Assembly (NCBI GenBank): GCA_973895155.1
Contig: OZ316891.1
Coordinates: 28,401,145 to 28,465,144 of the forward strand
Direction: 5' to 3'
Origin: Marsupella aquatica
Lineage: Eukaryota; Plantae; Marchantiophyta
DNA: 64,000 nucleotides
A model generated the notes under the pieces. The model ran no database searches, was not told the origin of the DNA, and worked only from the letters and a program-made list of their open reading frames with translations. Both the position numbers and the translations under genes were made by a program. This document shows, in pieces, positions 7,536-48,200 of the stretch (its first letter is position 1; every line of letters starts with the position of its first letter).

Positions 7536-7652
7536 CGCAATGAGTCCATTTTGAGGTGCTTAGTAGCTGCGCGGTGGGGAGAGAAGCATTACCAGAACCA
7601 TCCTGTACTGAAATTTTTCATTGCACACTCACATTGTCAACAAAAAAACACG

Positions 7653-15213: not shown

Positions 15214-15420
15214 GTTTCCCACGTACTTCGTACTTCGTGGAAGAGAGTAGCTTGTCCTACGGGAGAGAAGGTAGTTGTCAGAGTGTGTGTCCGTTCTGAG
15301 CAAAGTCGTTCGTAGGCTTGGCACTCAAATCTTCAGAAGAGCTAATTTGGAGGAGCAAGAGAAGCAGCAACGCCAAAATGTGTTTGCACAAGTATGCCAG
15401 GAGTAGGGCCTCCACATACT

Positions 15421-23800: not shown

Positions 23801-25014
23801 TAACTCCATAGCCAAGGAAGATGTCCACTTCCGTCACCATGTTGATGGTAAGGGCAAACACAACTGGTTCTGCATAGTTGGGACCCATAAGCCCCGCTCC
23901 TATCCATCTTTCAAGGCATTCCAGACCCATATGTATATTGCCCACAACCTGCAGTTGCCAGCTGCACTGTTGGAGCCGGGCCTGCCTTGGTTGGCTTCAA
24001 GATTTGAACTCTCAGCTCGTGTAGACAAGAACCGCAAGCCGGGTCGGATTGCTGCTGTGAAGGAGCCTAATGAAGCAACATGGACGCGCCTAAGGTCTAC
24101 CGTTCAGCTGCGATGGAAGCAATCCAAGTCTAGGAGGATTCAAGCTATGTTGAAGAAGAAATATCTGGTTGTTGGAGAGGAGCCCACTGTTCCAACAAAA
24201 ATGCTTCTCGTTCGGGTTATCAAAGCTGCACACATTCATCCCATGTGCAACCAGGGTTGGTCCTGTTTGCTAAATGATTCTATGTTTGAGATGTTGGAAT
24301 TTCTGGAGTCTGCTGGCACTTCTCCTATTGTGTTTGGATGGATTGAGCTTATCAAACAGATGCCCATTGTGCTGCCAAGGGATAAAAAACTGGTAGCTTT
24401 AAAAATGGACAGTGCCATGCTACAATGTTGTTTCCCTCAGTTGCATGTGGAGGTGCAACCTCCCCATCTTCTGCACATTGAGGAGGTTTGGGAGAACCTC
24501 ATTGGTCAGGCAGTGGAATACTTGAAGCAGAAAAGGGCACTGCTAAAGTGGAAGATTGCGCCCAAGCTAGTAGATTTCAAAGCTGCTGCTGCTGACTACA
24601 GGGAATGGAAGCGAGACCAGAAGCCCACAATGCTTGCAAAGTCTACTGCAAATCTCATCCAAGAATACAAGAGGAGGGGCATGACAGTTCGAAGTGCTCG
24701 GGAGGCGGTAAGTCTAGGCTCCATGAATTCTTTGTTTTGTAATGTATGCCTGTGCCATGTGAGATTCATAGTGCTATGTTATTGTGTAGGCTGGAGTCTC
24801 AGAGGTGTGGTAGGACACCTCTGATGAGAGTGATTATGAGATTGGCCCTGCAAAGTGGGGTTTGCTGTGTGAGGAAAGTGATGAAGAGGGACCCAAGGAA
24901 GAACCACAGGAACCTGCAGCAGCGGAAGACCCGGAAGAAACAATGGCGGGGGATGAAGAGGATGGACCTCATGAATCAGTTCATGGGGATGACGAGCCAG
25001 CATAGGACCAAGCA

Positions 25015-25275
25015 CAGCAAGAAGCCCAAGGGGAGGATGAGGTAGCAGAGAACCCACCAGAGGACCGACCACAGGAAGAAGAGATAGGGGAGGAGGAGGT
25101 ACCAGAGAACACACCAGAGGAACAACCACAGCAAGAAGAGATAGGGGAGGAGGAGGTACCAGAGAACACACCAGAGGAACAACCACAGCAAGAAGAGATA
25201 GGGAAGGAGGAGGTACCAGAGAACACACCAGAGGACCAACCACAGCAAGAAGCCCAAGGGATGGAGGAGGTACCA
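25015..25275 (+). repeat. 57-bp coding tandem repeat (QQEEIGEEEVPENTPEEQP), ~4.5 copies
   Basis: Seen directly in the sequence. Confidence 0.85.
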
Positions 25276-25589
25276 GCTCCTATTGAGGACTGTCTATGTG
25301 AAGAGGCATTTCAAGTTCCTATCCATCCAGAGATCCCCCTCAGCTTTCAACAGAATGCACATGTGTTGGAGCCTCCCACCGACGTCTGGAACTCATTTTC
25401 TGACCTCTTTGGGCCCCAATTACTTTGGTTAGCCTACATCTAGAATTGCTTTGCACGTTGAAGACATGATCCTTCTTGTCTTTTAAGTTTGCTGTGCATT
25501 TGTTTCATTGTAGGGAGGAATGGGTGTATCCCTGGACATCCCAGATAGTCCAGCACCAGCAAAACTCCAGGTCTACTGTGTAGCGCCAA

Positions 25590-26430
25590 CCAAGCCCTCC
25601 AAGGTCTGGAATAGATCTGCCCCCAATTCCCTTGCTGTTTCCGTGTCTTGAATTGCTTTGCAGGTTGGAGACGAGAACCATGATGTCTTTCAAGTCACCA
25701 TTCATTTTTTTTCTTGTAGCGACGAAGGAGGGGGGCATTGTTGGAGATCCCAGCACTAGCAGCAGCACCGCCCCCTGCAGCGCCAACCAACCCCTCCAAG
25801 GTCTGGATTGGATCTGCCCCCAATTCCCTTGTTGTATACGCATCTTGAATTGCTCTGCAGGTTGGAGACGATAACCACAATGTCTTCCTGTTCACATTAG
25901 ATCTTTTTTTGTGTAGGGACGAATAAGGAGGGGGGCATTGTTGGAGAGCATAGCAGCACCGCCCCCTGCATCACCAACCAACCCCTCCAAGGTCTAGAAT
26001 GGATCTGCCCCCAATTCCCTTGCTGTATACGCGTCTTGAATTGCTTTGCAGGTTGGAGACAATAACCACGATGTCTTCTTGTTCACATAATTAGATCTTT
26101 TTTTTGTGTAGGGACGAATAAGGAGGGGGGCATTGTTGGAGAGCATAGCAGCACCGCCCCCTGCACCGCCAACCAACCCCTCCAAGGTCTGGAATGGATC
26201 TGCCCCCAATTCCCTTGCTATATACGCATCTTGAATTGCTCTGCAGGTTGGAGACGATAACCACGATGTCTTCCTGTTCACATTAGATCTTTTTTTGTGT
26301 AGGGACGAATAAGGAGGGGGGCATTGTTGGAGAGCAGAGCAGCAGCAGCAGCAGCAGCAGCACCGCCCCCTGCACCGCCAACCAACCCCTCCAAGGTCTG
26401 GAATGGATCTGCCCCCAATTCCCTTGCTCT
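25590..26430 (+). repeat. ~195-bp tandem repeat, each unit an intron plus a mini-exon
   Basis: Four-plus near-identical units, each with TTGTAG/GTGTAG acceptor, GRIRRGALLES...APPTNPSK exon and GTCT donor. Confidence 0.9.
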
Positions 26431-28008
26431 ATTCGTGGTTTCGCTTTGCAGGTTCAGGACGTTAACCTCCACTGCCTTTGCATGTTTGTTTGGATTGTAG
26501 GGAGGCAGGGCAAGGGGAAGAGAAAGGGTATCTGGGGTATCAGTGCATGAGCTCCCTACAGCTACTCCACCACCTGCCCCTACACCAGCACCTGCACCAA
26601 TGGGCTCCCAGGTATGCCACATTTCTATCATCAATGTTTTGCTGGTCAAACGCCTTAAGTTTTGTAATGTCAATATAGAGTTTGCAACATCTTCTGATGT
26701 TTGTTTGGATTGTATGGACTACAGAGAGAAACTACACTGGCCTTAGGACCTGTTCAAGCCTCTAAGAAGAGGAAACCGGTCTCAAAATCGCACCAGGGTC
26801 AGGCTATTAAGATAGTTCCTCTACTCGCAGTTGATCCGACTACCAATGTTGTGTTTCTGAACCCTGAAGATGATGACCTAGCAGTGCAAGACAGTGTCAT
26901 ACAAAAGCAGAAGCGGCATAAGAGCGTGGCAAGTAGAGGGAGGGGCCGAGGCAGAGGAAGAGGGGGACCATCTCATGTCACGAGTCCCTTGGATGATATT
27001 CCAATAGATGATGGTTACACTTTAGACACGTTTATGCTTTCAGAAATACTTCAGATTGACTCCCAAGTCACTTCTTCTCATGATACTTTCAGGCAGAGTA
27101 TCAACCAGCTGCTGCACCCTTCCCAATTTACCAGTTGACTTCCACACCCTTCCCCATTTTCAGTGGTATCGTCATGGGTACTTCATGAGCTCCCAACAGT
27201 GGTAGTCAGTGCGTATATATGTAGGTTGATTGAAAATGAAGGGTTTCCATATAAATGGGTCCTCATAACTTGTACAGACATTTCCTTCAGTAAATTTTTC
27301 ACCTTACAAGGTTGTGTTTGAAATTATTGTCCATAATTGATTACCAATGACACCTCATGTCTGTTTGGATACAATGCATGCTAAAGCTAGCTAGTCTCGT
27401 TCAAATGGTAAGCAGGGGCCAACTCCGTTCAACCTGGTCACAAAGTGGAGTTCCTTACTATTATAACAATCATTCCAGTCTGCTTCTGTGAAGTTTAGAA
27501 TGCAAAAGATGACACGCATCTTGTCTTCCGCACTCACAAATGGCCAAAAAAAGAGGACACTTGGAAACTTTCGGGGCAAACCTGTAGACGACATGATCTT
27601 GTCTTCATTCCACTTACAAATAATGTGAAAGACCGGGTGGGGGCGGACAGCTAGAAGAAGGGTACCCGGGTTCCTAATTACACACTTAACAAGAAGCCTT
27701 AAGGGATGAGTCCAAAGCCTTATTTCTCTTTTCAAAATCTTCATGATATTAAAAAATGTATACCAAAAAACCACCAAAAAATGGTATGTATTTTCCAAAC
27801 TAGACTCAAGAGAATTTTACCACCAAAATCTAAGCATATCTTATATGATATTCTCACAATTGTATAAACCTTGAAATATGCACTTTATAAAAGTAATCAA
27901 AATCAAACTCATCGATCAGAGTTTAAGTCAAACTCAAAGTTTTACAAAATATAACCCAACTTAAGCCCAAGTGGTTTCAAATGCTACGAGTCCCTCTATT
28001 TATCTAGT

Positions 28009-31000
28009 CTAATCCAAAGGGACCACTTCCCCTTCCTCAGTTCCGGAAGTCCCTATCGTCAATTCTGGAACAATTGTGGCATCGTCAACCACGCTATCCT
28101 CTCCGGCCTGAGGAATGTCTTCCTCACTCTCCTCATCCATCTCCCCCTGTCCGTCTTCCTCTTCAATGTTATCTGCAAGGTTAAGAATCCTCCCTTTCAA
28201 CACACTGCTCTGTCGCTCGTCAATCTCAATGGCAACGCAATGTCTCCCCATGGCCAAGGAGGAGGTTGTCGCAGTCCCTGATCCTGAATAAATATCCAAA
28301 ACCCAGTCTCCAACCTGACTAAAATGACTCACTTCCCAATCTAACAATGCACGTGGTTTCTGATAAACATTCACTGCCTTGTTATCCCCGTTGTGTTTTA
28401 GCTTCTTAGTCACAGCTGCGCATACAACCACATTGTTCCTTGATTCATTTGTGTCAAAATTGAAGTGCTCCAATGACCGTTTACCATCCTGGCTGTGAAA
28501 GCCAATTGTAAAGCACTCAAAGTTGCTGTTCAATCTTGGTCCACCAGCATTCTTCACATTATCCTTAACCCTGAAAAGTCACAAAAAGTCAAGGAGTTAT
28601 TTAAACTGAGAAACATGGTTCATGAAATCATGAATAACTAATAGTTGTTTTTTTCAAAAACAAATATTTCTTACCACACACAATTCTGGAACCCTCCATT
28701 ACACTCCGCTTTCAAAACGGTCTTGATGGCCTCATATTGGTCAAGACTGTGGTGAATGATAATACGCCACAACTTTGCAGTAGTAGCCACCTTGAACGAT
28801 TGGACCATTTTTGTGATCTCCTCAGTTCCCCATCCAATAGTGTCTTCATGAAGACATCCAGGCAATGCAAACCCGTAGGGAATATCCACTAAAGCTAATG
28901 TGTAAGCCCGACCCGGAACCACCTCATGTAATCGCTGAGCATCATGAGTAAAAATATCATAGTGCACATCACCAAACTCTGGATGCTCAAACGAATTTGG
29001 ATGAAGTTCCCCCTCTTGGGTTTGCCGACTAGAAGTCTTCATGGATAGCCAATTTTGGGCTTGCACAATATGCGCATTGAATTTGTCCGGGAATGACTTG
29101 AGATCTTTGCCTTCCTCATCTCCCTTCTTTTTCCGGGAGGTGGTATCTTTCTACAAAAAGGAACTGTAGAATTAGAAACAAGGATTCCAAATATTAAATG
29201 AATTCAAACAATCATTCGAAGAAAGGTGACAGAATCTTACCCATGTCTGGAAAACAGGTACGAAATTCTTAAGCACATTGTCTGTGCAATGCTCAGGGTA
29301 CTTGGTTTTACAACCTGACCAACTCTCCTCGTGTAGACACGTGAGGAAGGCCTTCTGCACCTGCATCTGAAATTTGTGTCGAGTAAATTCGTGACCCATT
29401 TCCTGTAAAGAGAGTTCTTTAGTAAGAACTCTCTGTAACACTGGGCAAATCATATCAGGATCTTTCAAGGCCTGCATGTGTCTCCACTCTGTTAATTTCA
29501 TGTCCTCATAAGGCAATTTGGCATCTCCAGACTTAGAGACTTTCTTCTTGCCCTTGTCTCCTTTTTGACCTTTGATCTCACACATCTCCCACTTGTCACA
29601 AATCTGCCTCACAAATGACCACACAGGATCTTGTCGGAATGCCAACTGAAATAGGTTATCATTGGCATTAAGAACCTCAGCATCCTTTCGTACACCCCAA
29701 TCCTTGAGATTGATTTCAGTAGCACACTCTTTCTTGAAATCCTGGTTGGACGACAATCCATTCTCAACAAATCTCATGTGAATATAATTTACTCTCTGGA
29801 TTGTCGTCATCTGTTGTCGAAATTCAGAATCAATATTGTGACTCCACGCCAGGTTTCTTGCCTCTTGCACACTCAATCCCGCAAATATCCAAGATTGCAC
29901 TCTCCGAAATGCCTTGTTGTTAGGGAACTGAAGAGCAAGGTCTGCTTTGGCATAGGCTGAATGGTTGCCCCCAATCACATAATAATGGTAATCAGCTTTC
30001 CTTGAAAAATCAAAGTCTTGCCTAGTAGCACACTCCTTCGAATCCACCAAGAGGACAAACAGAGCTGCAAGTGGACTGGCACCTACAGTCTTCATCCGCA
30101 AGGTCAATTGGGTCAAGAAATATGGTTGGATGTGTCGGACCTGGTAAATGGGCAAGCCCACAGCCTTCTCTCTCACTGGAGGGTAAAGTTGACCAATGTC
30201 AACCGTCACAGTCTCCTCTTGAACACCACATCTTCCCAAAATCTCCTCCTGGTACAATACCCGTGCATCCATTGACATTGATTGAGCCTTTTGCTCCAAA
30301 TGCGTTGGAATTTTCTCCAAAGAGTTCTTTTTTGACTTTGTAGCACTGGGCTCGGTAGGCTCAGGAGTCATAGCAGGTCGCTTCTTTGAAGAAATGCGAG
30401 TTCCAGTCGTACCTTGTGCCGACCCACCAGTCAAAGCCATTCCCTGGGATGATCTGCCAACTTGAGATCCCCCTCCAGATGCAGCTGCTTCCCGGGAGGT
30501 TGTAGGCGCTACCACGGTCAAAATATCATTGGGTAAAATGCTAGGCCTGGATCCAGAAGGAACACCAGAAGCCCCAAATTTGGGTGGACGACTTACCCCC
30601 TTCTCTGCCGACCTTTTCCGGAGAATCTCTCTTGATTTTCGGATTGCACTCTTTAAAGTGCTAGCATGAAATTCGAACACAAAACCGGAAATCTTTCCCG
30701 CGACGTCGTGGTAACGTTCCTCACTCGAAAGAGACTTGACAGTCTCAATGATGCTATCGATGTCCTCATCGAGATAGCAGGTGGCAGCCGTTCCAGAAAA
30801 CCTCTCCACATCCACGACAATCAAAGTTGATGTTTCCTTCGTTGTGATCAACATGTTCACAACTTCGTCGCCCCGTCGAAATACATCGATGCGGCCGTAA
30901 TTTACCCACCCTAATGCCCCCGATGGAAGCCCCTCAAATACACACAGCATTAGGAAGGGCTTCTTCCATGTTTCCGTCCCTAAGGAAATCGTCCAGGATG

Positions 31001-31070
31001 AGTTGTGGAAGTCCGTCAAAGGATGGCGCGAAAAGATGTCATCCACCAGCTCTTCTTGCGACATTGTCAT
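28009..31070 (-). CDS. ParB/Srx-like domain fused to a beta-class N6-adenine/N4-cytosine DNA methyltransferase; 3 exons, 955 aa, intact
   Basis: Exons 31070-29241, 29150-28675 and 28570-28009 join in frame through GT-AG introns (2868 nt). ParB-like: TVDIGQLYPP..YQVRHI..LTQLTLRMKTVG..YYVIGGNHSAYAK..LSVQEARNLAWSHN. MTase: motif IV LALVDIPYG, CVWVK..NSNFE, then YQKP and motif I VLDIYSGSGTAT..GRHCVAIEID (motif IV before motif I = beta order). Confidence 0.9.
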
Positions 31071-31850
31071 GTTTTTGCCTGATCTTCAAACCTGAGAACA
31101 TACCACAAAATCAGTCCACTTCAACCCCAACCTGCGAGACAAAGTGCCACAGAACCAAGGAATGTGCCAATAAATGGCTACTAAAGCCGTGTCCTTACGG
31201 ATCTAACAACGCTCTCGACCACCCCAGGACTCCTATCATGAATTCATGAAGGGAGTCTCCCTCTCGCTCCGACCTTCATGAATTCATGAAGGGAGTCTCC
31301 TCTCTCTTTGCTTGTACACCTCGGTGATGCAGAAGGCTATTTAAAATAGGGTTCGAAGGGGGGGTGACGTGAAGAAATCACCCAGGGTCTAAATTACTAC
31401 CTAAAACAGGGTCGAAATGAAGTGCGACCGTGACAACTCGCGACACGTCGCCGATGAGTGCTGAAAATGGCACGAAATTGGACAACGAGATTGTTTTTCA
31501 CTCTTTTACAAAGGAAATCCAAATGACATTGAGTGAAAATGAATGGGCTGCCCCGTGTTCCTTGGTTATACATACTAATCACGGATCAGGCGCGACTTAG
31601 TAAAATTAACCCCGAATCATGATAAATCAATGTTTTCGGGCTAATTATTCTTGAATATTTTGGGATATTAACGTGAAAAATCTTGCAAATTTCATGAATA
31701 TTTGATATTTTTGAAGTTAAAAAGTCCCAACAATCCGTGAAAAACTATAAATAGGCTCGTTTATTCATGACTCTTGGTCATTATTTTGAGAAGATTTGTT
31801 AGATTTTACTGATTTTCTGAGTTTCTTGTCAATTTGCACTAGTTTTTTGA
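31071..31850. promoter_or_regulatory. Bidirectional intergenic promoter region with TCATGAATTCATGA palindromes
   Basis: Divergent ATGs at 31070 and 31851. TATAAATA at 31746-31753 (+) and an AT-rich TATA-like box at ~31338-31348 (-). Palindromes at 31236 and 31276. Confidence 0.65.
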
Positions 31851-34800
31851 ATGGCAGCATGTTACGAATCAGATGATTATTCAGATGGAGTTTCTGATGA
31901 TGTTTCATTGCCGGATGGCCCCTGCACAGTGGTTGGCCCAGATATCCCTGGAATAACTACTGTTTTAGATATGCCACCCCCCACCCCTATGAGCAAGTTA
32001 AAACGTAGTCCTTTACGACTTGCAATTAGTGGGAAGAAATCATTGGTCGGTGGTAAAGAGAGGTCAGGGAGCTCCTCTGACTCCTTGGAGAGTATTGGTT
32101 CCCCTGGACGTCAAGTTGTATCTCCTTTGTCACCAACAAAGGACAAATTGGGGAGTAATCTGGAAGGTTCAATGCCTATTTGGATGTCTGGGAAACGGTC
32201 TCATGAATTCATGAAGACTGGATTTGGAAAGACGAAGAAGGCACTAAGTGGGGAAAATGACAGAGATTTTTGCAGTCTCCAAAGTGTTCAGCGGCTAAAG
32301 CAAATGCCAAAAAGTAAAACCTTTGGTAAGCCAACGTCGGAAACATTTCACAGGGGGATGAGGGAAGAAACTAGACGACCAGTGTTATTGAAAAGTATTC
32401 CAGAAAAGAATTCTAATGTGCGTTCCTCAGTTTTACCTAGGAGTCATGGTGTTGGGGCAGGGAGCGGATCAAGTCACGGAAACTCAAACAGGGAAACGAA
32501 CCTGGTGGAGAGGGACCCTAGGAAAATATTGAAAGGGTCCCTACACGGTAATGGAGGGATTTCTGAAATACGCCCAGGTATTCCAAGGCTGCATAGAGTG
32601 AAGGAAGAGCCTCCATCTCCGGAGGCTGCAGGTCTGGAATCTAGGCATGTTCAGAAGCAAATGTTGGTGACCATTTCATCATCGAATGAAAGCGAGTCTT
32701 CGGAGAGTGGGGAGGATGATGATGTTCCGGTGGCATCTAGTCGTTACAAACGTACGAGCAATGCCACTTTGTGTGAAACAAAGTTGAAAGAGGAGGATAT
32801 CAAGAAAACAAATAGTAAGTATTGTTGTCAGAGTCATTGTCTCCTAAGTCTATCTCCAAAAGAAATTCGTGAGGCGCGTTCTAAATTTTTGAGGCAGAAA
32901 TCTCAGGATCGATCTTTATCTTTGCAGTGGCTTATAAAGCGAGACGGAAATGAAGGAGGGAGGCAGACTATATCTTACACGTTTGGTCAAAAGAGTATTT
33001 GTCGGAAAGCTTTCAAGCTTATATTTTGCGTTGGCAATCATAGATTAAATAGAATTTTGAAATTAGACAACCAAGACTTAGGATATTCTAAACCAGTTGG
33101 ACGCCCTCCATTTGTTAAAAGATTAGTCTTGGTCAGTTGGCTTAGGTCATTTTTTGAGACACGCTTGGAAACATTGCCAAATAAAGAAGTTTCACATTTA
33201 CCGGATAATTATTCAAAGCTGGAGGTATGGAAGATCTACGACTCCAACTATGCCAAGATTGATGAATCATCAAAAATATCCTATCGACAATTCTTGAAAG
33301 TTTGGGTTCAAGAATTTGGTCATGTGAAGATTCCTCCAGTAAATCGATTCAGTGCTTGTGCGGATTGCGAGGAGTTCAAATCAATTCGTGACAAAGCTGT
33401 CTCGGAGACCGAAAAGAGTAAGTTACTTACAAGTTTGACAAGTTTTTGTTTCAAGAATATGGCTTAACACATGATTTCTAAATTTTTTTGAAGAAACTAA
33501 CAAGTTGTTTTTCCAGGGCGAGGGGAAATTATGTTACAAAAACATAGAGACCAACAATCCAAAGAACGTGAGAAACTTGCGAAGCATCGTAAGAAATGTT
33601 TTTCAAATTCTGATAAATATTTGGGAGTTGTCATTGATGGGATGGATCAGAAGAAGACAAGGTTGCCTCATTGGCCGCGGCCCCCAAAATCGGTGGACGA
33701 AACATGTTTGATCCAAATGCACGTTGTCGGATGCCTGGTTTTCAATGGTGCACTATTTTCAAGAGTGTTTCTTAATTATCCTGTATTGCATAATGATGGA
33801 AACTTGACAGTCACAATCCTGCAAAGGGTGTTTCACGAATGGGAAGAAAAGCCTGGTGGCTTGCCGCCTGTTCTCTATCTTCAACTTGATAATACCAGTA
33901 GAGAAAATAAAAATAATTTACTCTTTGCCTATCTTCATATGTTGATTCGAAGAAAGGTTTTTCGGAAAATCAAACTAGGATTCTTGTTGGTTGGACACAC
34001 ACACGACCAAATAGATCAAATGTTCAGTCGGTTTTCTAAACGACTAGCAAGGTTTAAGGCATTCACATACGAAAGCCTATGTGATATTATTTGTGAATCA
34101 TATCAACCCCAACCAAATATCACTCTTTTAAAGGAAACATATGATTTCCGTCAATATGCCTTCTCAGATCCACCTTTAGTCATTGAAAGGATTCGAAATG
34201 TTACCTTCCACCACCAGTACAAATTTGCATTTGACAAGTTGGAAAATCAAGTTCCAACCCAATGGGGGAAGAAGTTTTCCACGGACTCAACTTGGAAACC
34301 TGACGGAGGCGTGAAATTTTTGAGGGAAGAGGAGCCAGAAAAGGTGATGGGTTGTGCTCCCGGATTACCCCTTTTCAAAAAGGGGGATAAGAACGTTACA
34401 AGGACTCAACCAAATATGTCTAGTTCTTCAAGAATGACTTTGAAAGAGATGGATGATTCGTTAAATGAGATTCAAAAGGGAATACTTGCAGTTGAAACTT
34501 TATTCTCAGAAGAGGAAGTGAACTGGTGGAGAATGTTTTTTGAAGAGCAACGGGAATTGAATAAATCTTTGCTCCTTGATCAAAGACCATTGATTTTCCC
34601 TTTTCAATGGCCACGCTCCCAAAGGGAGATTGCTGTTGCTGCTGAAGTTCCCAAAGTCCTTGTCAATGAAGAGGAAATTGAAGAGAGAGTATACGGACCT
34701 ACCAGAGATATATACGTGGGTCCTTATCGGAATCAAGGAAAGATAGATGCAGAGAAGGAGAATATGGAAGGAGACTTTTCGGATCTTGAAGTCAACACTT

Positions 34801-35252
34801 ATATTTCTGTTGCTGGAGAAGAATCGGAAACATTTTGGGTGGCCAAGGTGGAAAGAATTGACCAGCGCGACGAGTTCAACATTCCAAAAATGATTTATGT
34901 TTTATGGCATGCTACAAAAACCGGGTCAGATCCTTGGAAAGCCTGCAAGTACTTACCAGAAGTCTTAAACTACGAAAAGAAGAAAAGTGGTCGTGGGAAA
35001 GGAACTTTGAAACCAATATGGTTTCACCAAGAGCTTGATTTATCTTCAACGACTGTTTTTGCTTACAACTTCATGTTGACAAAATCTGATACATTATACA
35101 AAAAGACAGTAGATCGAATCAAAATCCGATTGACTGAATTTTTGGCAGAAGAGAAAGAGCAAGAACAAGAGAATGGATCAACTAGAACCCCGCTAGGAGA
35201 TAAATCTAGGGATATTTCGTTTCAAGAATTGAGGACTTCTGGATCTGAGTAA
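31851..35252 (+). CDS. Sola-like (DUF7869-type) DDD transposase; 2 exons, 1100 aa, intact
   Basis: Exons 31851-33417 and 33517-35252 join in frame (3303 nt, GT-AG intron). Motifs: CCQSHC, ICRKAF, FSACADC..H, VIDGMDQ.K..P, LYLQLDNTSRENKN, FLLVGHTHDQIDQMFS. These resemble the Sola pattern D...SDxCxGQNKN...FLxxGHT..D. The superfamily call is by motif resemblance only. Confidence 0.8.
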
Positions 35253-36441
35253 TGAAAAGTAGTTATTGTTTGTGACATTACCATTGAAAAACATGGATAA
35301 CTTGAAATTTTACAAATTTTCAAAATGCCTTTACCACTTATTCATGAATTCATGGTTAAAGTTTCTTGAGAAATTTGTAGTTTAATATTATCTTAGTGGG
35401 TTGTGTTTCAATTCAATTAGATGGTGTCATTTCTATTCTCCTTGTCTTCTTTTCACAATAATGTGTATCAGGTTAAGTTGTAGTAATTTATTTTCTGGTT
35501 TTTAAATGACAATGGCTTTTGGAGGTGATTTAGTTGTTGTTTCAAAAGACACCTCGTGTAATTGTGAGACCATTGTAGATAATAGTGTTGTATTTGAGAT
35601 CATTTATTGGTGGAATGTAACTTCAGATGAATTTGGTCATTTTTAGGTGTCAAAACATAGCTAGTTTATGTCATATTTTGTTCGCTCCATATTTTTGCTC
35701 TAAAATAGGTGCTAATTTTTGCACTGTTTTTGACTTTTTCGTTGTTTTTCTGATTTTTTGGCTAGAGTTCCTAAAGTATGGGCTTGTTACTCATCATTTA
35801 AGGCTTCTTGTTACTTTGGAAAAAGGAAGACAACATGTATGCTGTCTTCCATAACTCTTACACATAATTTAAATGACCGGGTGCGGACGGCCAGATGAAG
35901 GGGGTGTGGGTTGTAGGCAGACTTGGGCAAATTTGGAGACACCATTAATTTTGTCTTCACTCACTATTACAAATAATCTGAATTGGGTTTCATTCAGACT
36001 CAAATATATGTAGGGCTAATTATGTGAACACAACATTAATAATGTCTTCACATATAGTTTTCCTTGTGTTAGACCCCCTCATGTTATGTGGCATCCTTGC
36101 AAAGGAAGAACATTAGGCACAGCAAGAAAGAACATTTGGCACAATATTAGTAAGAAGGCTCTTACATATGTCACATTAATGTTGGGTCTTCGGCCCCGGC
36201 ATGCTTGGGGTTCTGGGGGGCAGCAGGGACCATGGATGAAATCCACATAGATGGACAATATTAGTTTTTGCTTCAATTCAATGGTCACGTATGAGGCCAA
36301 GTGTGTTTGTGTCGTGAGATGATTCCTTACTGTAGAGGAGGTGTGTACATAAAAGCATGAACTTGTATGAGTTTAACCTTTATTTGATTTATTCTTGCTT
36401 TGTCAAATTTACCCAAATACAAGTTTAAGTAAACCATTATG

Positions 36442-36990
36442 CCCTAAACCTAAACCCTAAACCTAAACCTAAACCCTAAACCCTAAGTTACCTCCGACCT
36501 TTTGTATTGTATAAGGTGAGGCAAGAATAACAACCCCATAAAACTCATCCTATACCTCCATTGTTCAAATGAGGCCATTTAGTGAGTTATGCCTCTGGCC
36601 TAGAAGTAATGAAAGAAGGCCTACCCTAAACCCTAAACCCTCTGCCAACTCCTAGTAGCCTATACACCCTAAACCCTCTTTGAGGCTACTAGTAGGCTAT
36701 ACACCCTAAACCCTATACATTTGTTCAAAAAGTAGGGCTTCAATTACACCCAAGAATAGAATATGTATGGATGTTTGACTTGAAGTGGGTCAAGAGATTG
36801 ACAAAATTGATCCCCCTCCTACCTTTTCCTTTTCTTTTGCAAAATATGTTGTGAATAAATGGGGTACCTAAAAATTGGTATAACACCCTCAGTGCTACAA
36901 AACTCCAAAGTAAGGCCTAGTTTTGTCAATTGAGCATATATATGTACCAAGTTCATTAAGGGCCCTAAACTCTAAACCCCTAAACCCTAC
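36442..36990 (+). repeat. Interstitial plant telomere-type repeats (CCCTAAA/CCTAAA) in several short clusters
   Basis: Clusters at 36442-36486, 36624-36641, 36667-36677, 36704-36715 and 36963-36988. Confidence 0.75.
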
Positions 36991-38093
36991 TAACCTGTCC
37001 CCCAAATTACCTAATATTGCTAAGGTGCCCCCAAAACAAATTTTTTTATCAACATGTCCTCCATTTCGTATTTGTATCAATATTAAAATGTATATGGGTT
37101 CCCATTACCATCTAGCAAGTTGTTATTGGATCGTATGAGCCCATCAGGGCACCTCTTCATCGGCCTCACTTGGTTACGGGAACCCATATATGAGTTAATA
37201 TTAACCCAAATGAAAAATGGGGGACAATTAAGTTAATAATTAATTTTGTCTAAGGAACAAGTTAATAATATTGGGTAGTAGTTTAGGGGACAAGTTAGTA
37301 AAAAACTCTAAGAGCATAAGCATCCAGAGTAAGTGTGACAGGTCCATTAACATCTCCATTAACAACATAAACATCTTGATAAGTTTGTACAAACATGCTG
37401 AGTATGTATGGTGGCTACCCTGAAAAAAATGGTGATTTGAAGTCCAAAATACAACATGCAATGAATGAAACATGTGAACACAACATGATTATTGTCTTCA
37501 TTACACGCTTCCACCAAAATTGCGCCGTTGCAAGAGGGGGGCATTTTGAGTGTTTGGATGCTCCTTGGACAGAAGAACGATGGTTACCAGGGGGGGCATG
37601 GGTCAAAGTTACTTGGTTTTGTTCCCACACTGTTACACAACTTTGGGTGTATGTACATGAAGACAATATGGTTTTTGTCTTCGTACCAAAGTAGGAAAAT
37701 ATATGGGTTGTTGCAGCGGACACTCGATTGCAGATCCCGTTCAGGAAGGTCGAACGGTCGCGAGGTAGACCTTGGCACAATTTGCTGCTAAACAGACCTG
37801 GGCCAATAGTAATGGAATACAACGCCATGAGGCAGCAAAGAATAGCTCAATACACATTGCACAGTAATGGACGTCCATGCACTCAACATTGCAAATTCCA
37901 ATAATTGCTTCAATTTCTGATTTCAAAATGTGTGGAGTCTGCGTATGCAGTCTTCAAAATTTGCAAAACTACAATTACTTCTGCTGCTAGCCTCTGCCTA
38001 GTCTGCAATGAGTTACAGTGGGAGCTCAGGGAATCCTGAATTGTACCCATCACCTCAGCCAATCGTAAGCTATACCCATTACCCCGTATGGGT

Positions 38094-39078: not shown

Positions 39079-40826
39079 AATGCCAGTTAGCTCTATGTTA
39101 GCTATTCTTGAGGGCACAACCAAAGCAGTTGTTTATTCCATATCATGAAGTATAGTTAGTCAAATGAAGTGATATCTTCCTGATACTGTGATCCAAAGCC
39201 TCGGCACTCCATGGCAACTCCATGGCAACCTCCTCTGCCAACTCTAAGTATCGTTGCATGTTTTCAGGGGGTCCATTGTAAGAGTGAAAAGGATCATCAT
39301 GTCTTGTTGCAATTGTGCTGTCTGGACCAATGCCTGTGCTTGGTGCTGTAGAAGGAATAGAATATTCAGTTGCCACCAGGTCTTCTCCTGGAAGAGGTGA
39401 CCACTGAGTATGATCTGTATGTGAACCAGCATTATCCACCTGCACAATGAAATGGTAACAAAAGCGAAGCATTACCCACCCGCACAATCAGTAATAAACT
39501 CAACAATGAACTTAGTGGTTTATTGAGGAATCCTATACCTCTGCAATTTTGGTACAAGTCCTTCTGTTGTGTCCAGCTTCTCCACAATTGGAGCACCTAC
39601 ACTTGCCGGTATACTGGCGCAGCTTCTTCTTACGTGGCTGAATTTGAATCCCTGGAAGTCCAGCAGAAGTGTTTGCACGGGGAAATGGTTCCACCCTGTT
39701 GGGGTCATCAAACACTGGATACCTCAGGAAACGTTCTCCTGAGGTGTTGTAAACCACATCTTCTCCTTCTCTAATAGCCCTAGGTCCATGCCTTGTACCT
39801 CGATCACCTTGCTGGAATCGAACCATCCTATGACGACCCCTTTTCACAGCAACCTCTGGAGGGGCACAATTAGGACTCAACTGAAGGTCACTTACAACAA
39901 AGCTAGGCATGACCTCATCATACAAAGCAAGCAATGAACCTGTTCGCCAACACCTGTGAAAATGTGCAGATGGGTTCCGCCCTTCCTGGTCATCCCATGC
40001 CATGATGTGCTCACATGGCCACACCATTTCTTGTAGTTCAAAACATGAGCAAGCTTTCTTGGGTGCTAGGGACACAAGATACTCTTCACTGCCGGATGTT
40101 GTTTGTACTTTTGCAGTGGATTGTCCATCATCAAACACCTGCCCATGTCAATTGTTTGATTACTGAATGTCAGCAGACATTGAGATCGAGACATTGAACC
40201 TTACCACACTAGTACAAGTCAGATTTGAAAGTCAGATTTGAAATGTTTACCTGCCATTGACCAAAAGTTTTCAAGTTGTTGTTGTATCTGATGAGGGCTG
40301 GAATTGTCAATGCTTCATGTCTAGCAAGTGCTGTTGTTCTCCTGTCTTTAAGCTTCTGCTACATGTAAATCCAAAGTTGAACTAATAACTTGAAAGGGGC
40401 AAATTCCCAAAATGGCAATAACCCTGAATTAGCTTGCTCACAAGGGTTACTTGTAACCTTGCCCATCCGTGGAAGTGGGAAGGCCATCCGAGAATACTGT
40501 CTAACATCAAAAGTTCTGATGTAGTTTACAACATCATCTGACTTACTTGAATCTACGGCATTGGATAGCCGCCTCAAACAAGATTCATACCTGTTATACA
40601 ACCACAGAGGGGACACCAGACGGTTACAATAGCAGAGAGAAGACAAATAATCTTGTCTACATCTAATGTACTGAGCAAAGAGAAGACATTCATCATTATG
40701 TATGCACACTTCTATACTAAAAACATTGACAAGCCATCCATACAAAGGCACACAGAAGACATTCATCATTAAATGTATGCACATTTGTGTACTGAAGCAT
40801 TCAGTACACACCCATGATATAGAGGC

Positions 40827-43800
40827 TGTGACAGGGTCCCCGTCACATAAAATCACGAATAACTTGGTCGCGGAGTGTCGCGCAGTGTAAATAACCATTG
40901 TAAATAACCATTTTTTCAATTTTTTTTAAGTTAATTCTATCACCTGTGACCGAAGAATTGTATTTATTTTTATCCCCTAATTGTTCTGCAATTATGTTGG
41001 GAGGAGGGCCCTGCCTTTGGGGGACTCCCCATTATTTTAGGGCCATTTTTAGAGAACTCAATAGCAAGGTTGATGGGAAGAAGAAATGAAACAGGACCGG
41101 GAGCAAGGAAGTTTTTGAGTAGAGGTGACCCCGGCAGTGTGATTAGGGGGAAGTTTTTTTATGGGCAGCCGGAGCCGGGCTGGACAGGGAGGAGGCTGTC
41201 GCGAGCCCTGCATAGGGCCGCGTTCAGGAGAAGAAAAGGGGGGATTAAATCCCCCGTTTGAGGGGAGCCCCGCGAGCTGAAGGAAGCGAGGCGCCGAGGG
41301 TGGGGGAGAAATTAAAATTCCCCCTTAAGGGGCACCGCAAGTACCAAGTAGGGAGGCCGGTGCAGGAAGGTCGCGGAGGGGGGTTAAATACCCCTTAAGT
41401 GGCCTGGCAGAGGGCGAGCACTTAAGGGCCCATAAGGGGCAGCCCTAGGGCCGCCACGTGGAATCCCCAGGTAAGTGCTCCCGCGAGCAGGGCAAGGGCA
41501 GCCGGGCCGCAGCCGAGGAGTAAAGGGGGGGGTATTAAAACCCTCCCATGAGCCCATAGGGCTGCGTGCCAAAGGCATTTAGGGCTCCCGCGAGCCAGGC
41601 GAAAGAGGGCGCTACGGGGGGTGGCCATGAGGCGAAAGAGGGCTGTCGGGGGGAATTAAATCCCCCGTTTGAACCACGAGTAGCCGAGCACTAAGTGCTC
41701 CCGCGAGTGGCGCAGGGGGCATCGGGGCGAGAGCGCAGCCGGGACTCCTGCGAGAAAAGTGAGATGGCAGGTGGCCGGGGTGAGCCCATAGGGCTGCGTG
41801 CCCAGGGCATTTAGGGCTCCCACGGGCCAGGCGAAAGAGGACATCGGGGAGGGCCATTAAAGGAGGGCCCGGGTCGCAAGGCGAAAGGAGGTGTCGGGGG
41901 GGATTTTTTGTTTTTTTTCCCTTCTTTTCTCCCTCTTTTGCACAACCCTCTCCTTGCCGAAAGCAAAACTCGAAGCTCTTTCCCAACACCTTGCCGAAAG
42001 CTCTCACCTTCTAATTATTTTTGAAGCTCTCTCTCATGGTAGATTGGTGGGGCTTGGTGGCCTGATTCTTCCGGGCCTTAGCGGCAGCAGCACGGACTGG
42101 CTTCTGGGGGAATTGAGAGTAATCGATTGATCGGGATGCGGGGGCTGTTTCGGGCCAGGGAATTGACATTGCTACGGGTGACGGGATTTGGTGATTGAGG
42201 ATTTGATTTCGGGATGCATGAATGCTAGATCAACCGGAGTTCAGTGTGGCACGCATTCGGAGATACAAGGCTGCTTACCGTGACTACGTGGAGACTTTGA
42301 TTGCAAGGGAGAGAGAAGAGAGAGAAGCTACGATGAGCACGGGATTGGTAGCAGGTTCCACGCCGGTGGGTAGGAGGATTTTTCGTCGAATTTATCCCAA
42401 GACCTCCGCCAAGGTGATGGAGGATTGTCGGAATATTTTCCAAGCCACCGGGGTTACAGAATTCATGAAGGTGGAGATTACCATCCCCCCGGGGAAGAGC
42501 TGGGACATTGAGGCCGGGATGGAGTTACGAACGGAGGGAATCTACTTTGAATGTCTCAAACGTGTAGTGCCCCATGTAGAGTTGGCTAGGCTGCTGTTTC
42601 TGGAGAATCAGAAATTCTCATTCACACCTCGGCACATCAGGGGAGAACTCACGTTGAAGATGGTGGCCACTTGGGTGATTAATCCCACCTCCACCACTGC
42701 CATCCCTCTTTCCGCTGTCAAGGATGTTGAGTATAAGGGATTCCTGGCCAAGGTTCATCAACGGGTCCTTGGCAACGTGCAATCAGGGGTGGTGAATGAA
42801 GAGCATTTTGTGGTAGCTATGGACATCAAGAACCACCCAGCCCATGTGTACGGATGGTGGTACTACGGGTTGAAGAAGCTGTTGGCCGCTGACCTCGGGA
42901 GTGTGAAACCAGGTGGGGCTGTACATTTGATGGGGTCATTTGTATTGGCCAGGGCAGAAGGGTTGATTGGTTCCCCGGGACAGGAAGACACGGAATCATC
43001 TCTCACCACGGAGATCCGGAGTATTGCCACTACCGTTATAGGGAAGCTCACGGAGGAATCATCGTCGGCTGGTGGGGATGAAGATAGAGGAGAAGAAAAC
43101 CAGGATGAGGACTACACATTGGAGTGGCTTGAATCACTCGTGGGAGATCCGGAAGAGCCCCTGGCCTACAACATTCCGGATGTTTACCTGGCAGAGCTAC
43201 GGGATTTCAGAGAGGGAGTCCATGAGGGACTCAAGCTAGTCCACGCATTGAGAGAGTCTCTCAAGCACACCACAGCCAGAGTAGAGACGTTCGAGCAGAG
43301 TACCCTGTCTCTGAAGGAGGTGATCAAGGCCAAGGAGGAGACCATTCATGAGAAGGTTAAGCTTCTCCAAGCAGCTCACGTAGAGATCTCCAACTTGAAG
43401 GGAGCCTTGTCCACCAAGGCCAAGGAAGCAGAAGAGGTGGGAGCATTGAGACAAGCATTGGCCAAAGAGAAGCAGAATTCTGGAGAAGTGGTGGAGTGGA
43501 GAAACCAGGTGGGAGCACTACGGAGTCAGGTGGCCGCCTTTGAGACACGAGCAAAGAGGAGTGAGGCCTTGAGTCTGGGGAAACGGAAGAGCCCCGACAC
43601 TCCTAGCTCCACACTTTCTCCGGATTTGATCTCCCAGGCTATTGAGATGGTGGTGAAGGAGGTTAGTGGGAAGTATGGGCCCTTGTTGGATGGAGCCAAG
43701 AAGAGTCAGGAGAAGAGCAAGGGCTTGGAGAAGAAGCTCCGGGAGGTACGGAAATCATTACGGGAGGCTCAGGTCAGTACAAGGATGCCACCCAGGTCTG

Positions 43801-45228: not shown

Positions 45229-48200
45229 AAGTGAAAAAGGCACATAGAAGACATACATCATTATGTATATGTATTGTGAATCGCAGTGAAGACATTCATC
45301 ATTATGTATATGTACTGTGAATCGCAGTGAAGACATTCATCATTATGTATATATATAGTGTATTGAATGTCTTACAACAGGCAATTGAGAAATGAAAGGA
45401 AAGGTATGTAATGCTCACTGAATTATGTCGTTTGCATAAATGCAACCAGTGAATATATTAGCCGCTGTTCTGCCATGCCTGGTCTTGACATTTGCCCTCA
45501 AGTGATTGGCACAAGCTGCATGGATCTTACCTGGCCATACTTCTCTAACTGCAGCAACCAGACCCTTCTGGCGATCTGATATGATTGGCATGATTGTGGA
45601 TTCAATGCCATAGAGGGCTCTGTCAACTAGTTGAAGAAACCAAATCCAATTCTCAGTGTTCTCCACTGGAGCAACTGCATAACAAAGTATGAAATTCTGT
45701 GCATTGCCATCTAAGCATGTTGCCAAGAAGAGTTGAGTGGGGTACTTTTTGTTCTTGGTGTGACAGGCATCAAGCAAAATCAATGGCTGAACAAATTGGA
45801 GAGCTTTCCTTGTAGCCGATGGGCAAATAAAAGCTCTGCAGAAAATGTTAGAGTCTTCCATAGGAGACCACTTTGCAATGCAAGCAGGGTCAGCCTCCCT
45901 CAACCTAGCAATGAGTGTCGGTATCATTCTGAACGTGTCCTCCTGTCCACCAAGGTGAATATGTTTAATATAGTCCTTAGCCCGCCACATCTGGTGGTAA
46001 GTGGTACTCTTTTGTAGTCCCCCTGGAAGCCATTTAGTAATTCTTTCACTGACACTTTCAAATTTCGTGTTACTCTTGGAGCCAAGGTATCGCCCAACCA
46101 AATCGACTTCTGTGTTGGGCCTCTCCATTTGTGTTTTGACGCTGCACAAGTGTGTTTGAGATCACACACTGTGATCACATGGGCCCCTGTTTCTGCTTGC
46201 CAATGACAACGAACTCGAAATGGGCAAGACAAAGAAGTATCAACACCTTCTTCATCATAAGATTCAGGCGGCCTGAATCTGGACATCTCCCCACATGCTC
46301 CAGTTGCTGATTTGTTGCCTGATTTCCTGCCAGGCAACCAAACACTAGTATGCTTGATGATTGTTGTAGGTCTGCTTGTGAGGACTCCCAAGGCTGGTGG
46401 GAGTGTGGCGGTGACTCTGGGTTGCTTGCTCAGCAAATTGTTTGGATGAAGGTCTCCAAGAGGAGCACGAACTTGCTTTTGGGATCCTGTCATCTGTAGT
46501 ATAGCCTTCTCAAATTCAATGTCTTCCACCTACACAATGCCCAAAGACACCCATTGTCAAAAAAACTGAAAAGGCAACAAGGGATAGTTGCCGGAATTGG
46601 TGAAAGCACGTGAGCACTTACCTGTTCTACTGTGAGTATAGATTGTGCATGTGGATTTAGACTCTGAGCAGGACCCTTAGTTTTAGACTTCCCTAAACCT
46701 TTGTCACGGAAGCCAGTGTACTCCCCGTATCGACTGTCATAGTGCCAGAAGAGCTCATCTCCAGATTCCTCTTCCTCTTCATCTTGGCGATCATGTTGGC
46801 CTTCACCTTGATCATCATCATCATCAGCAGCATCTTCAACTACCATTGAACCACCATTGCAGTCTCCTGGAGTAGGTGGAATCCTGGAAGATTTTCTTAC
46901 AGGATTGCTAAATCGACACACTCTAGTTCGAAAGCTTCCTTTACTTTTATATCTGGAAACCACACGGCCATTCATGACAGCCCATGAATCTAAGCAACGG
47001 TCAAACTGTTCAAAATCACTAAATCGCTCGCCCAAGCGAATTCTGGCTGCCTCTGCTTCCACTGCAAGCGATGTTGTACATACAGTGTGAAGACAACATT
47101 ATTAACGTCTACACATACTTCTACAGTCCAGAGACACTACACCTTATGACTTATTTGGGGACATATCTATAAATCCATTATTGTGTAGGGACAGAAGATG
47201 AAATGAAATCAGGCGAATGCTTCCAAAGTCCAGAAACAATAGAGGTACAATAAGTTCAATACACTCACTCAAGGATAGTTCATTCAAGGAAAACGATAAT
47301 CTGGACACAAAATAATTTGAAGACATAATGATTTGTGTCTAAAAATGCTTCTCCAATCCAGGTTGCTAATTTCATAACAAGTGCGCCGTGCGATGGCATT
47401 CAGACATAGTAAACAACAAGTGCACCCCCACGTTTCAGCAAACCAAATTCTCACCTTGGAAAACCATAATCTGGACACAAAATTATGTGAAGACATAATG
47501 ATTTATGTCTAAAAATGCTTCTCCAATCCAGGAAGCCAATTCTTTCGTGATACAGGCAATATAGGTACTAGGCAGCAACAAAAGACCAAATCAATTGAAT
47601 CCACAGTCCAAAGAAACAGTCCAGAGAAGCATTCCATGAGTTTAAATAAATATTGATCCATATTGACAATTGAATGACAAGGAAGACAGATCTTCATGGA
47701 AGATAACAAAAGCTTGTAGATTGGAGCCAAAATGCATTGGAGTCATTTATCACCTGGTGTTTCCTCCATCGCACCAGGTTCTATTAATTTCATAACAAGT
47801 GCGCCGTGGGATGGCATCCAGGCATAGTAAACAACAAGTACACCCCCACATTTCAGCAAACCAAATTCTCACGTTGCTCAGGACTCTTCCCTTCCAGAAT
47901 TGCTGCCAGGTTTGAGGCGGGTCTCTTTCTCCTTCCAAAACATGGACTCTCTTGAGGTGGCGGTCTGTCAGCTTTCGGGATGTCCACATCGCATACGTCC
48001 CCTCTACGCCAGAGATGCACTTGCACTGCTTCATTATCCTCTTCATCTGCACATGACATGTTCATTGTCATAGGAGACTGTGATCATTGGACTTCAATAT
48101 TCACTGTGCACATTTGGAGGTACTCTGTAGGTACTCCGCACTGACGCTGTCAGCCGCACATGAAAACATTGTGAAAAACCCATGTGCAGCGTGTGAAAAC

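What the first reader, a model, noticed from the sequence alone, without database searches (positions are those of the whole stretch)
28009..35252. Plant DNA transposon encoding its own ParB-fused amino-DNA methyltransferase
Seen: an intact, intron-containing gene with a ParB/Srx-like domain (GGNHS in place of the usual GxxR), a helical region and a complete beta-class methyltransferase (DIPY; QKP; DIYSGSGT; AIEID), head-to-head with an intact Sola-like transposase inside one TIR-bounded unit. Established: ParB-methyltransferase fusions of this class are typical of phages and prokaryotic mobile elements. Eukaryotic amino-methyltransferases of bacterial origin are rare (N4CMT in bdelloid rotifers, 4mC methyltransferases in Marchantia sperm), and plant DNA transposons are not generally known to carry them. 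Inference: a transposon-borne 6mA or 4mC writer that may mark its own copies, regulate transposase expression or counter host 5mC silencing, and a possible vehicle for such enzymes entering plant genomes. DIPY (DPPY-like) leans towards 6mA but does not decide it. I cannot confirm novelty without a search.
Basis: partly seen in the sequence, partly recalled or inferred. Interest (0 to 1): 0.95.

Follow-up and report, generated by a model that had tools for sequence, protein, structure and literature searches.

The report
Plant transposon carrying self-marking DNA methylase
This is an 8-kb jumping gene, likely from a moss- or liverwort-type plant and likely mobile recently, that carries a second gene predicted to make a bacterial-style DNA methyltransferase, which likely binds a short palindrome repeated inside the element and likely methylates adenines in the element's own DNA; the same gene pairing was already described in a brown alga.

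Summary
Observation confirmed. Window 27688-35812 is an 8,125-bp DNA transposon with 32-bp terminal inverted repeats and a 4-bp target duplication. Public contigs show an empty site and other flanks. It encodes a 1,100-aa Sola-like transposase and, head-to-head, a three-exon 955-aa protein with a ParB fold and a beta-class amino-methyltransferase domain under purifying selection. Relatives occur in Chara, liverworts, a fern, Ginkgo and marine animals; a Riccia copy has the locus tag next to the transposase.

The kind is known: Ectocarpus Sola1-1_Ec32 has the same architecture, and self-modification was already proposed (PMC12477816). This scan also noted a dead relic of this kind in a flowering plant (e1-7226250).

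New here are a streptophyte lineage with a compact, polymorphic element and a palindrome, TCATG-N4-CATGA, kept at matching positions in divergent elements. It is a candidate binding site.

The ParB arginine is absent, so CTP clamping is unlikely. 6mA is favoured over 4mC. Activity and expression are untested. This copy looks aged (CG/CHG decay).

The parts
27684..27687 (.). left target-site duplication, ACTT
   Evidence: sequence; empty-site joint with 4 shared letters
27688..27719 (+). left terminal inverted repeat (starts AACAAG)
   Evidence: 4 contigs in X1 and 8 in X2 leave the window sequence at 27688 into differing flanks
28009..28570 (-). accessory gene exon 3: methyltransferase second half (QKP, SAM-binding motif I at 28273-28296, AIEID) and acidic tail
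   Evidence: PF01555 41.3 bits vs cut-off 26.7
28571..28674 (-). intron 2 (104 nt, GT-AG)
   Evidence: same position in L001-L003
28620..28633 (.). palindrome TCATG-N4-CATGA in intron 2
   Evidence: also in intron 2 of 3 of 3 loci
28675..29150 (-). accessory gene exon 2: catalytic motif IV, DIPY, at 28875-28886
   Evidence: DIPY in 4 of 4 aligned rows; no methyltransferase Pfam hit on this exon alone
29151..29240 (-). intron 1 (90 nt, GT-AG)
   Evidence: same position in L001-L003
29241..31070 (-). accessory gene exon 1: N-terminal beta domain (aa about 16-137), disordered linker, ParB/Srx-fold domain (aa about 275-420, window about 29811-30248; GGNHS at 29958-29972) and helical region
   Evidence: model; Foldseek Noc E 7e-5; VIA Z 10.0, rmsd 2.5 over 97 residues to ParB 7bm8
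31236..31249 (.). palindrome, upstream pair site 1 (166 bp before the accessory ATG)
   Evidence: pair 40 bp apart here and in L001, 42 bp in L002
31276..31289 (.). palindrome, upstream pair site 2
31071..31850 (.). shared upstream region of the two divergent genes (inferred bidirectional promoter)
   Evidence: gene geometry; TATA-like stretches near 31340 and 31745 seen by eye; not tested
31851..33417 (+). transposase exon 1
   Evidence: Cys-rich motifs align with relatives
32201..32214 (.). palindrome inside the transposase coding sequence, 350 bp after the ATG
   Evidence: L001 has one about 332 bp after the matching ATG
33418..33516 (+). transposase intron (99 nt, GT-AG)
33517..35252 (+). 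transposase exon 2: acidic catalytic motifs DGMDQ (aa 563), LDNT (646), GHTHDQ (682)
   Evidence: DUF7869 E 3e-51
35342..35355 (.). one-mismatch copy of the palindrome in the right subterminal region
35781..35812 (-). right terminal inverted repeat
35813..35816 (.). right target-site duplication, ACTT

Best explanation
This is a two-gene, TIR-bounded DNA transposon, likely of the Sola1 type, whose accessory protein likely binds as a dimer to the element's own TCATG-N4-CATGA palindromes and likely writes N6-methyladenine at or near them, which would tune expression of its two genes. Shown: the element, its ends, other insertion sites, an empty site, the open spliced frame, the predicted folds, purifying selection, and positional conservation of the palindrome. 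Inferred: splicing in vivo, dimer binding to the palindrome, catalytic activity, adenine as target, and a regulatory outcome (self-limiting, or protection from host CG/CHG silencing). The ParB fold likely serves as a dimerisation and DNA-binding scaffold rather than a CTP switch. The window copy is likely an older, once-silenced insertion, with better-preserved copies elsewhere.
For: Ends and mobility. Fold: ParB/Noc are the top 3 Foldseek hits, VIA Z about 10. The family profile's best PDB hits are CcrM 4.6e-11, M1.HpyAVI, MboIIA and RsrI, with rotifer N4CMT at 4.6e-5; a full-length relative's model gives the same order. Motif IV starts with D in 22 of 22 rows and YQKP is kept in 32 of 36. 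dN/dS is 0.04-0.20 in 8 of 10 comparisons, and dS is saturated in the other 2. Linkage: Riccia R1sor_010796 (methyltransferase) and R1sor_010795 (best Riccia transposase hit) are consecutive tags on one contig; L001 has a divergent ORF with the same first residues. Palindrome: 4 of 4 window matches lie inside the element, 0.13 expected; 4, 3 and 1 in L001-L003 at matching places. Dimer model: score 0.44, best of 3 controls 0.00, runs agree in at least 56% of contacts, pLDDT at least 71. The mark was reached by 21 of 30 solved pairs and 0 of 23 single chains in microbes, and by 17 of 29 eukaryotic pairs. Precedent: PMC12477816 and the Bostrychia preprint.
Against: No activity, binding, modification or expression data. 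Motif IV lacks the first proline of DPPY and drifts (DIPY, DFPY, DAPY, DIPH, DFPC; DTPQ, DVPN and DTRG in animals), so some or all members may be inactive. N6/N4 specificity has switched repeatedly in this domain (PMC8885841). The methyltransferase fold was modelled on relative P0185, not on the window protein. The dimer pass may come from solved ParB dimers: only 1 of 7 eukaryotic pairs without an older relative passed, and my alignment was not used. The palindrome pattern was defined after seeing the window and the intron-2 sites, so the shuffle counts are post hoc, and nothing ties it to this protein rather than to the transposase or a host factor. Linkage outside the window rests on one pair of locus tags (distance and orientation not seen) and a 15-of-21-residue match with E 0.13; 2 other Riccia hits have no adjacent tag among the 120 of 140 transposase hits listed. 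This copy itself shows 5mC-type decay, so any protection did not last here.
Confidence: 0.5

Rival explanations
1. The accessory protein is a DNA-binding regulator whose methyltransferase domain is catalytically dead and is kept as a fold, as argued for DIRS1 retrotransposon methyltransferase domains.
For: Motif IV drift across the family and loss of the aromatic residue in animal rows; DIRS1 precedent (PMC4738411 section 9).
Against: The SAM-binding motif, YQKP and D-x-P-Y are kept in the window's clade despite saturated synonymous sites.
Confidence: 0.2
2. The palindrome is bound by the transposase or a host transcription factor, and the methyltransferase acts elsewhere: genome-wide, on single-stranded DNA, on excised intermediates or on RNA.
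For: No direct link between protein and site; many eukaryote-acquired amino-methyltransferases are argued to have moved to RNA.
Against: Three of the four sites flank or interrupt the accessory gene and none is at the element's tips; the protein has a ParB fold and is predicted to dimerise; a ParB-fusion accessory gene sits beside inverted-repeat arrays in red algal Plavaka elements.
Confidence: 0.16
3. Same targeting, but the mark written is N4-methylcytosine.
For: The same Pfam family holds both activities; several top viral fold matches are labelled cytosine-N4 specific.
Against: No row has serine at the first position of motif IV, unlike the SPPY and TSPPY 4mC enzymes; 6mA enzymes rank first among solved structures.
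Confidence: 0.12
4. Chimeric assembly, bacterial contamination or chance juxtaposition.
For: No whole genome was held to check context.
Against: Spliceosomal-type introns conserved in 3 of 3 loci; contigs from 4 of 4 runs cover the element; empty site and TSD; no close viral or prokaryotic locus.
Confidence: 0.02

Closest known systems
Sola1-1_Ec32 of the brown alga Ectocarpus (PMC12477816; passages and supplement rows seen)
   Same: Sola1-type element, 4-bp TSD, termini starting AAC, one accessory gene on the strand opposite the transposase encoding a ParB-like plus N4/N6 methyltransferase protein (1,104 aa vs 955 aa); self-modification proposed.
   Different: 21.5 kb with 282-bp TIRs in a stramenopile, against 8.1 kb with 32-bp TIRs in a streptophyte; no cis site is mentioned in the passages I saw; sequence homology could not be tested.
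Plavaka accessory genes PAG2 and PAG3 of the red alga Bostrychia (10.1101/2025.02.11.637652; passages)
   Same: Transposon cargo with PF01555 and with a ParB-like domain; inverted repeats beside the ParB gene proposed as its binding sites.
   Different: EnSpm superfamily; the methylase is fused to SET and the ParB domain to a 2OG oxygenase, in separate genes; repeats form tandem arrays.
Phage and prophage ParB plus N6_N4 methyltransferase fusions (10.1101/2025.10.10.680097; passages)
   Same: Domain pairing and order.
   Different: Only 24-28% identity and only over the methyltransferase domain in the 20 best of 554 phage records; Box II arginine absent; introns; extra N-terminal and helical domains.
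Marchantia DN4MT1a/b and bdelloid N4CMT (10.1101/2021.02.12.428880, PMC8885841; passages)
   Same: Beta-class amino-methyltransferase of bacterial type in a eukaryote.
   Different: Host genes with (T)SPPY making 4mC, no ParB domain mentioned, not described as transposon cargo in the passages seen.
VANC anti-silencing proteins of Arabidopsis VANDAL transposons (passages in PMC12973397 and PMC12859917)
   Same: Transposon accessory protein acting on its own element through sequence-specific targets; a functional analogy only.
   Different: Mutator-type elements (recalled); unrelated protein; no methyltransferase domain known (recalled).

Membership tests
beta-class DNA amino-methyltransferases (PF01555) | profile score above the curated cut-off | tested here: met
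   41.3 vs 26.7 bits on exon 3; 7 of 35 longer relatives also pass
beta-class DNA amino-methyltransferases (PF01555) | catalytic motif IV before SAM-binding motif I (permuted order) | tested here: met
   DIPY aa 699, DIYSGSGT aa 861
beta-class DNA amino-methyltransferases (PF01555) | fold of CcrM, RsrI, MboIIA | tested here: met
   on relative P0185: Foldseek CcrM E 1.3e-11, M1.HpyAVI TM 0.80 by target; the window's own domain, split over two exons, was not folded
beta-class DNA amino-methyltransferases (PF01555) | canonical (D/N/S)PP(Y/F/W) catalytic motif | tested here: inconclusive
   D, second P and Y kept; first P is I
beta-class DNA amino-methyltransferases (PF01555) | methyl transfer to adenine N6 or cytosine N4 | not testable with these tools
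   needs an assay
ParB-type CTPase clamps | ParB/Srx fold | tested here: met
ParB-type CTPase clamps | Box II GxxR arginine needed for nucleotide binding | tested here: not met
   0 of 28 readable rows (29 examined) have R; Box II placed by pattern and secondary structure. Not filed as a CTPase.
ParB-type CTPase clamps | dimer bound to a palindromic site | tested here: inconclusive
   dimer model passes, possibly from memory; palindrome present; binding untested
Sola (Sola1) DNA transposons | terminal inverted repeats and 4-bp TSD | tested here: met
   4-bp TSD given for Sola2 and for Sola1-1_Ec32
Sola (Sola1) DNA transposons | conserved acidic catalytic motifs | tested here: met
   D124 invariant and D43, D166 nearly so in 15 rows; their likeness to Sola1 rather than Sola2 or Sola3 is recalled
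Sola (Sola1) DNA transposons | similarity to reference Sola1 transposases | not testable with these tools
   no Repbase; the defining paper is not held; no listed paper has the term DUF7869 (30 of 47 listed)
Sola1-1_Ec32-type ParB-methyltransferase accessory genes | ParB-like and N4/N6 domains in one protein, on the strand opposite a Sola-type transposase inside one element | tested here: met
Sola1-1_Ec32-type ParB-methyltransferase accessory genes | sequence homology to the Ectocarpus protein | not testable with these tools
   no protein sequence seen in the supplement hits; no named stramenopile among the 30 proteins looked up
eukaryotic 4mC writers (MpDN4MT1, N4CMT) | SPPY catalytic motif | tested here: not met
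   D at the first position in 22 of 22 rows

The most novel reading that the evidence does not exclude
A eukaryotic address-and-write system descended from phage ParB-methylase fusions: a nucleotide-independent ParB-fold dimer loads on parS-like palindromes built into the transposon and writes 6mA only on its own family, keeping young copies active against host CG/CHG silencing. It has ridden Sola elements through streptophytes since before land plants, with distant relatives in marine animals.
Probability: 0.3. Interest if true: 0.85.

Novelty: new member of a known kind. Interest (0 to 1): 0.63.

Why it matters
The idea that algal transposons methylate their own DNA with a bacterial-type enzyme is published but, in the passages I saw, untested. 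This element makes it testable: it is small, has two genes, is polymorphic with near-identical copies, and offers a specific 14-bp candidate site at fixed positions. If true, it would give a transposon-encoded, sequence-addressed source of 6mA in land plants, where the origin of DNA 6mA is debated (recalled), and a form of transposon self-regulation or anti-silencing distinct from VANC.

Tried and rejected
No whole genome was held, so copy number and linkage could not be counted genome-wide. Contig depth is higher inside the element than in the flanks (X1 484-916 vs 70-116), but the tool warns that depth is no copy number. No RNA holder was listed; this says nothing on expression.

No close relative was found in viral contigs (0 of 347 stretches), prokaryotic genomes (0 of 118) or GenBank phages with exon 3, so recent horizontal transfer was rejected. 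The paired palindrome occurs in 7 viral loci and 47 prokaryotic stretches; the 7 viral loci hold no homologue of either gene and the 47 were not examined. Pfam and PHROGs find nothing on exon 1; ParB rests on structure. The N-terminal domain gave only weak PH-like/SANTA matches (best Z 5.1, rmsd 3.8, 91 aligned). TCATGA alone was rejected as the conserved unit because L002 has none. No depletion of CATG, GATC or eight other tetramers stood out. The sigma-70 scan was at chance level and is irrelevant to a plant.

My first two transposase splice trials were off by one or two bases and gave stops; this was corrected. The atlas search for the methyltransferase domain did not complete. No tree with phage, rotifer or Marchantia enzymes was built, as their sequences were not in hand; the one tree covers the ParB-helical region of 29 chosen rows, is midpoint-rooted and has long branches.

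Not held: Bao 2009, the 2025 journal version of the Marchantia paper, and reference 50 of the Ectocarpus paper. Ten literature searches listed no paper whose title or the passages I read report this fusion in land plants or this palindrome. Subscription papers, Repbase reports, bioRxiv supplements (the Bostrychia table of accessory-gene elements) and most of the 390 ParB places in the PMC4738411 supplement were not seen and could hold such a report.
Full report
1. The element. An inverted repeat pair at 27688-27719 and 35781-35812 (27 of 32 identical) is flanked on both sides by ACTT. Contigs of four public runs from two studies were laid on 26500-37000. All four cover the element, and depth steps up in the bins that hold its ends. 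Runs X1 and X3 (one study) join 27683 to 35813, skipping 8,129 bases with 4 letters fitting either side, which is the element plus one copy of the duplication. That joint has only 26 letters on its short side, but an X1 contig leaves the left flank at 27687 and runs on for 255 letters whose first 30 match window 35817 onward. Four X1 contigs and eight X2 contigs enter the element at 27688 from differing flanks. So the boundaries are exact and the family has several insertions. The empty site could be a paralogous flank, since the flanks are repeated in some runs. Recent mobility is inferred.

2. The genes. On the plus strand, 31851-33417 plus 33517-35252 give a 1,100-aa protein with DUF7869. 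Named relatives are in Riccia, Adiantum, Ceratopteris, Chara, Ginkgo, amphioxus and sea urchin (140 hits among 1,303 candidates, 120 listed), and the acidic motifs are conserved. The Sola assignment rests on the 4-bp duplication, termini starting AAC as in Sola1-1_Ec32, and motif likeness that I recall; no reference Sola transposase was available. On the minus strand three exons give 955 aa. The same two introns occur in 3 of 3 related metagenome loci (3 of 28 pattern matches), and the second splice restores a W-x-K motif shared with CcrM.

3. The domains. The model of exon 1 (mean pLDDT 70.5, pTM 0.44) matches Noc and ParB as the top three Foldseek hits and ParB at Z 10.0, rmsd 2.5 over 97 residues. 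Box II reads GGNHS; 0 of 28 readable rows among 29 keep the arginine whose loss abolishes nucleotide binding in tested ParB folds (10.1101/2025.10.10.680097, passages). I therefore do not file it as a CTPase. Residues 256-610 are predicted to dimerise through the ParB domain: score 0.44, best of 3 controls 0.00, contacts agreeing at least 56%, pLDDT at least 71. The mark was reached by 21 of 30 solved pairs and 0 of 23 single chains in microbes, 17 of 29 eukaryotic pairs, but only 1 of 7 without an older solved relative, so the pass may reflect known ParB dimers. The methyltransferase half passes the PF01555 cut-off. A 21-row family profile ranks CcrM, M1.HpyAVI, MboIIA and RsrI first and rotifer N4CMT later, and a model of the single-ORF relative P0185 gives the same order. 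Motif IV begins with D in 22 of 22 rows that cover it (of 192 aligned) but varies after that; YQKP is kept in 32 of 36. dN/dS against three loci is 0.04-0.20 in 8 of 10 comparisons, and synonymous sites are near saturation, so the values are rough.

4. Range and linkage. Close homologues: 12 among 878 candidates for exon 1 and 19 among 29 for exon 3. A profile search gave 448 hits, 150 listed. Of 30 proteins looked up, the named ones are from Chara, Riccia, Calypogeia, Adiantum, Ginkgo, Exaiptasia, Ptychodera and Saccoglossus; none is named as prokaryotic or viral. The window protein groups with Calypogeia (93/89, not starred) inside a clade of unnamed environmental rows, and the plant and algal rows separate from the three animal rows, so the host is likely a bryophyte. 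Riccia R1sor_010796 is the next tag to R1sor_010795, the best Riccia transposase hit. Only 1 of the 3 loci reaches far enough upstream; there a divergent ORF shares 15 of the first 21 residues with the window transposase (E 0.13 on its own). P0001 and P0032 each come from a Logan contig of 8,829 bases, which may be the same one. Two other Riccia hits show no adjacent transposase tag in my list. Phage relatives are 24-28% identical and cover only the methyltransferase, which points to an old acquisition.

5. A conserved cis element. TCATG-N4-CATGA occurs 4 times in the 64-kb window, all inside the element (0.13 expected): a pair 40 bp apart before the accessory gene, one in intron 2, and one 350 bp into the transposase. 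L001 has the same four (pair 40 bp apart, intron 2, about 332 bp into the matching ORF). L002 has the pair (42 bp) and the intron site, and L003, which covers only the 3' part, has the intron site. The middle four letters vary. The pattern was generalised after I saw the window and intron sites, so shuffle counts are post hoc; the upstream pairs and the coding-region site in the loci were found afterwards. A palindrome suits a dimeric ParB-fold protein, and each half holds CATG, which offers both an adenine and a cytosine. Binding is inferred.

6. State of this copy. Among X1's 124 differing places over the 10.5 kb laid, 53 are window A or T against read G or C and 27 the reverse. Of 35 listed places inside the element, 22 are C-to-T type if the majority is ancestral, and 17 of these 22 are in CG or CHG context against 27% of the element's cytosines (listed rows only). 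Five changes fall on residues conserved in relatives. The window copy was likely methylated by the host and is ageing, though both frames remain open.

7. What is known. An earlier scan note (e1-7226250) pointed to algal precedents, which I checked. PMC12477816 (passages, part of the references, supplement rows) describes Sola1-1_Ec32 with an opposite-strand 1,104-aa ParB-like plus N4/N6 methyltransferase gene and proposes self-binding and self-modification, citing green and red algal cases. The Bostrychia preprint (passages) has a PF01555-SET gene and a ParB-oxygenase gene beside inverted repeats in Plavaka elements. PMC4738411 (passages, sections 8 and 9, 12 supplement passages) lists a ParB-HTH fusion in chlorophytes and chytrids of another structural group and says land plants have few such enzymes. 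PMC3627910 (passages, supplement search) reports methyltransferases in viral Mariner elements and Fanzor cargo in Sola2. The Marchantia and rotifer enzymes have (T)SPPY (passages). PMC12973397, PMC9033089, PMC5751038, PMC4455052 and PMC12859917 (passages) added only that Sola is rare in plants and known from Physcomitrella.

8. Verdict. A real, well-bounded element and a new member of a recently described kind, extended to streptophytes with distant animal relatives. The added value is a compact polymorphic element and a conserved candidate site that make the published self-methylation hypothesis directly testable. Anatomy about 0.95; full mechanism about 0.5; interest 0.63.

Noticed in passing
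window 29811-30293 (accessory aa 260-450): Protein-language-model look-alikes at 0.96 include unnamed sponge, mollusc and cnidarian clusters and fungal DUF3723 (31% of members), and at 0.92 phage-type ParB_N. DUF3723 occurs in Starship papers (listing only), so it may be a ParB-fold cargo protein. A lead only.
   Followed up: partly
P0254, P0286, P0304 (Ptychodera, Exaiptasia, Saccoglossus): Animal proteins with the same ParB-helical-methyltransferase layout but a degenerate catalytic motif; their genomic context was not seen.
   Followed up: partly
window 30660-31025: Well-predicted N-terminal beta domain of the accessory protein with only weak PH-like/SANTA matches; role unknown.
   Followed up: partly
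window about 34790-35130: Conserved tryptophan-bearing C-terminal domain of the transposase, by eye like a small beta-barrel; not tested.
   Followed up: no
window 14653-15324, 50563-51264, 56445-57008: Three similar ORFs with a RING-variant-like Cys/His motif (label recalled), possibly duplicated with surrounding repeats.
   Followed up: no
window 7536-10626, 39533-40925, 45415-47098: Broken Mutator-like transposase pieces (label recalled; SWIM finger just under cut-off for one).
   Followed up: no
window 62468-63947: Fragments that look like a CACTA transposase (recalled, not tested).
   Followed up: no
window 36440-36990 and 24941-26435: Scattered telomere-like CCCTAAA units in the right flank; 57-bp and about 195-bp tandem repeats left of the element.
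   Followed up: no
L004:4638-5053, L005, L010: Phage contigs with the same palindrome as a 39-bp pair plus a third site about 360 bp away, with no homologue of either gene.
   Followed up: partly
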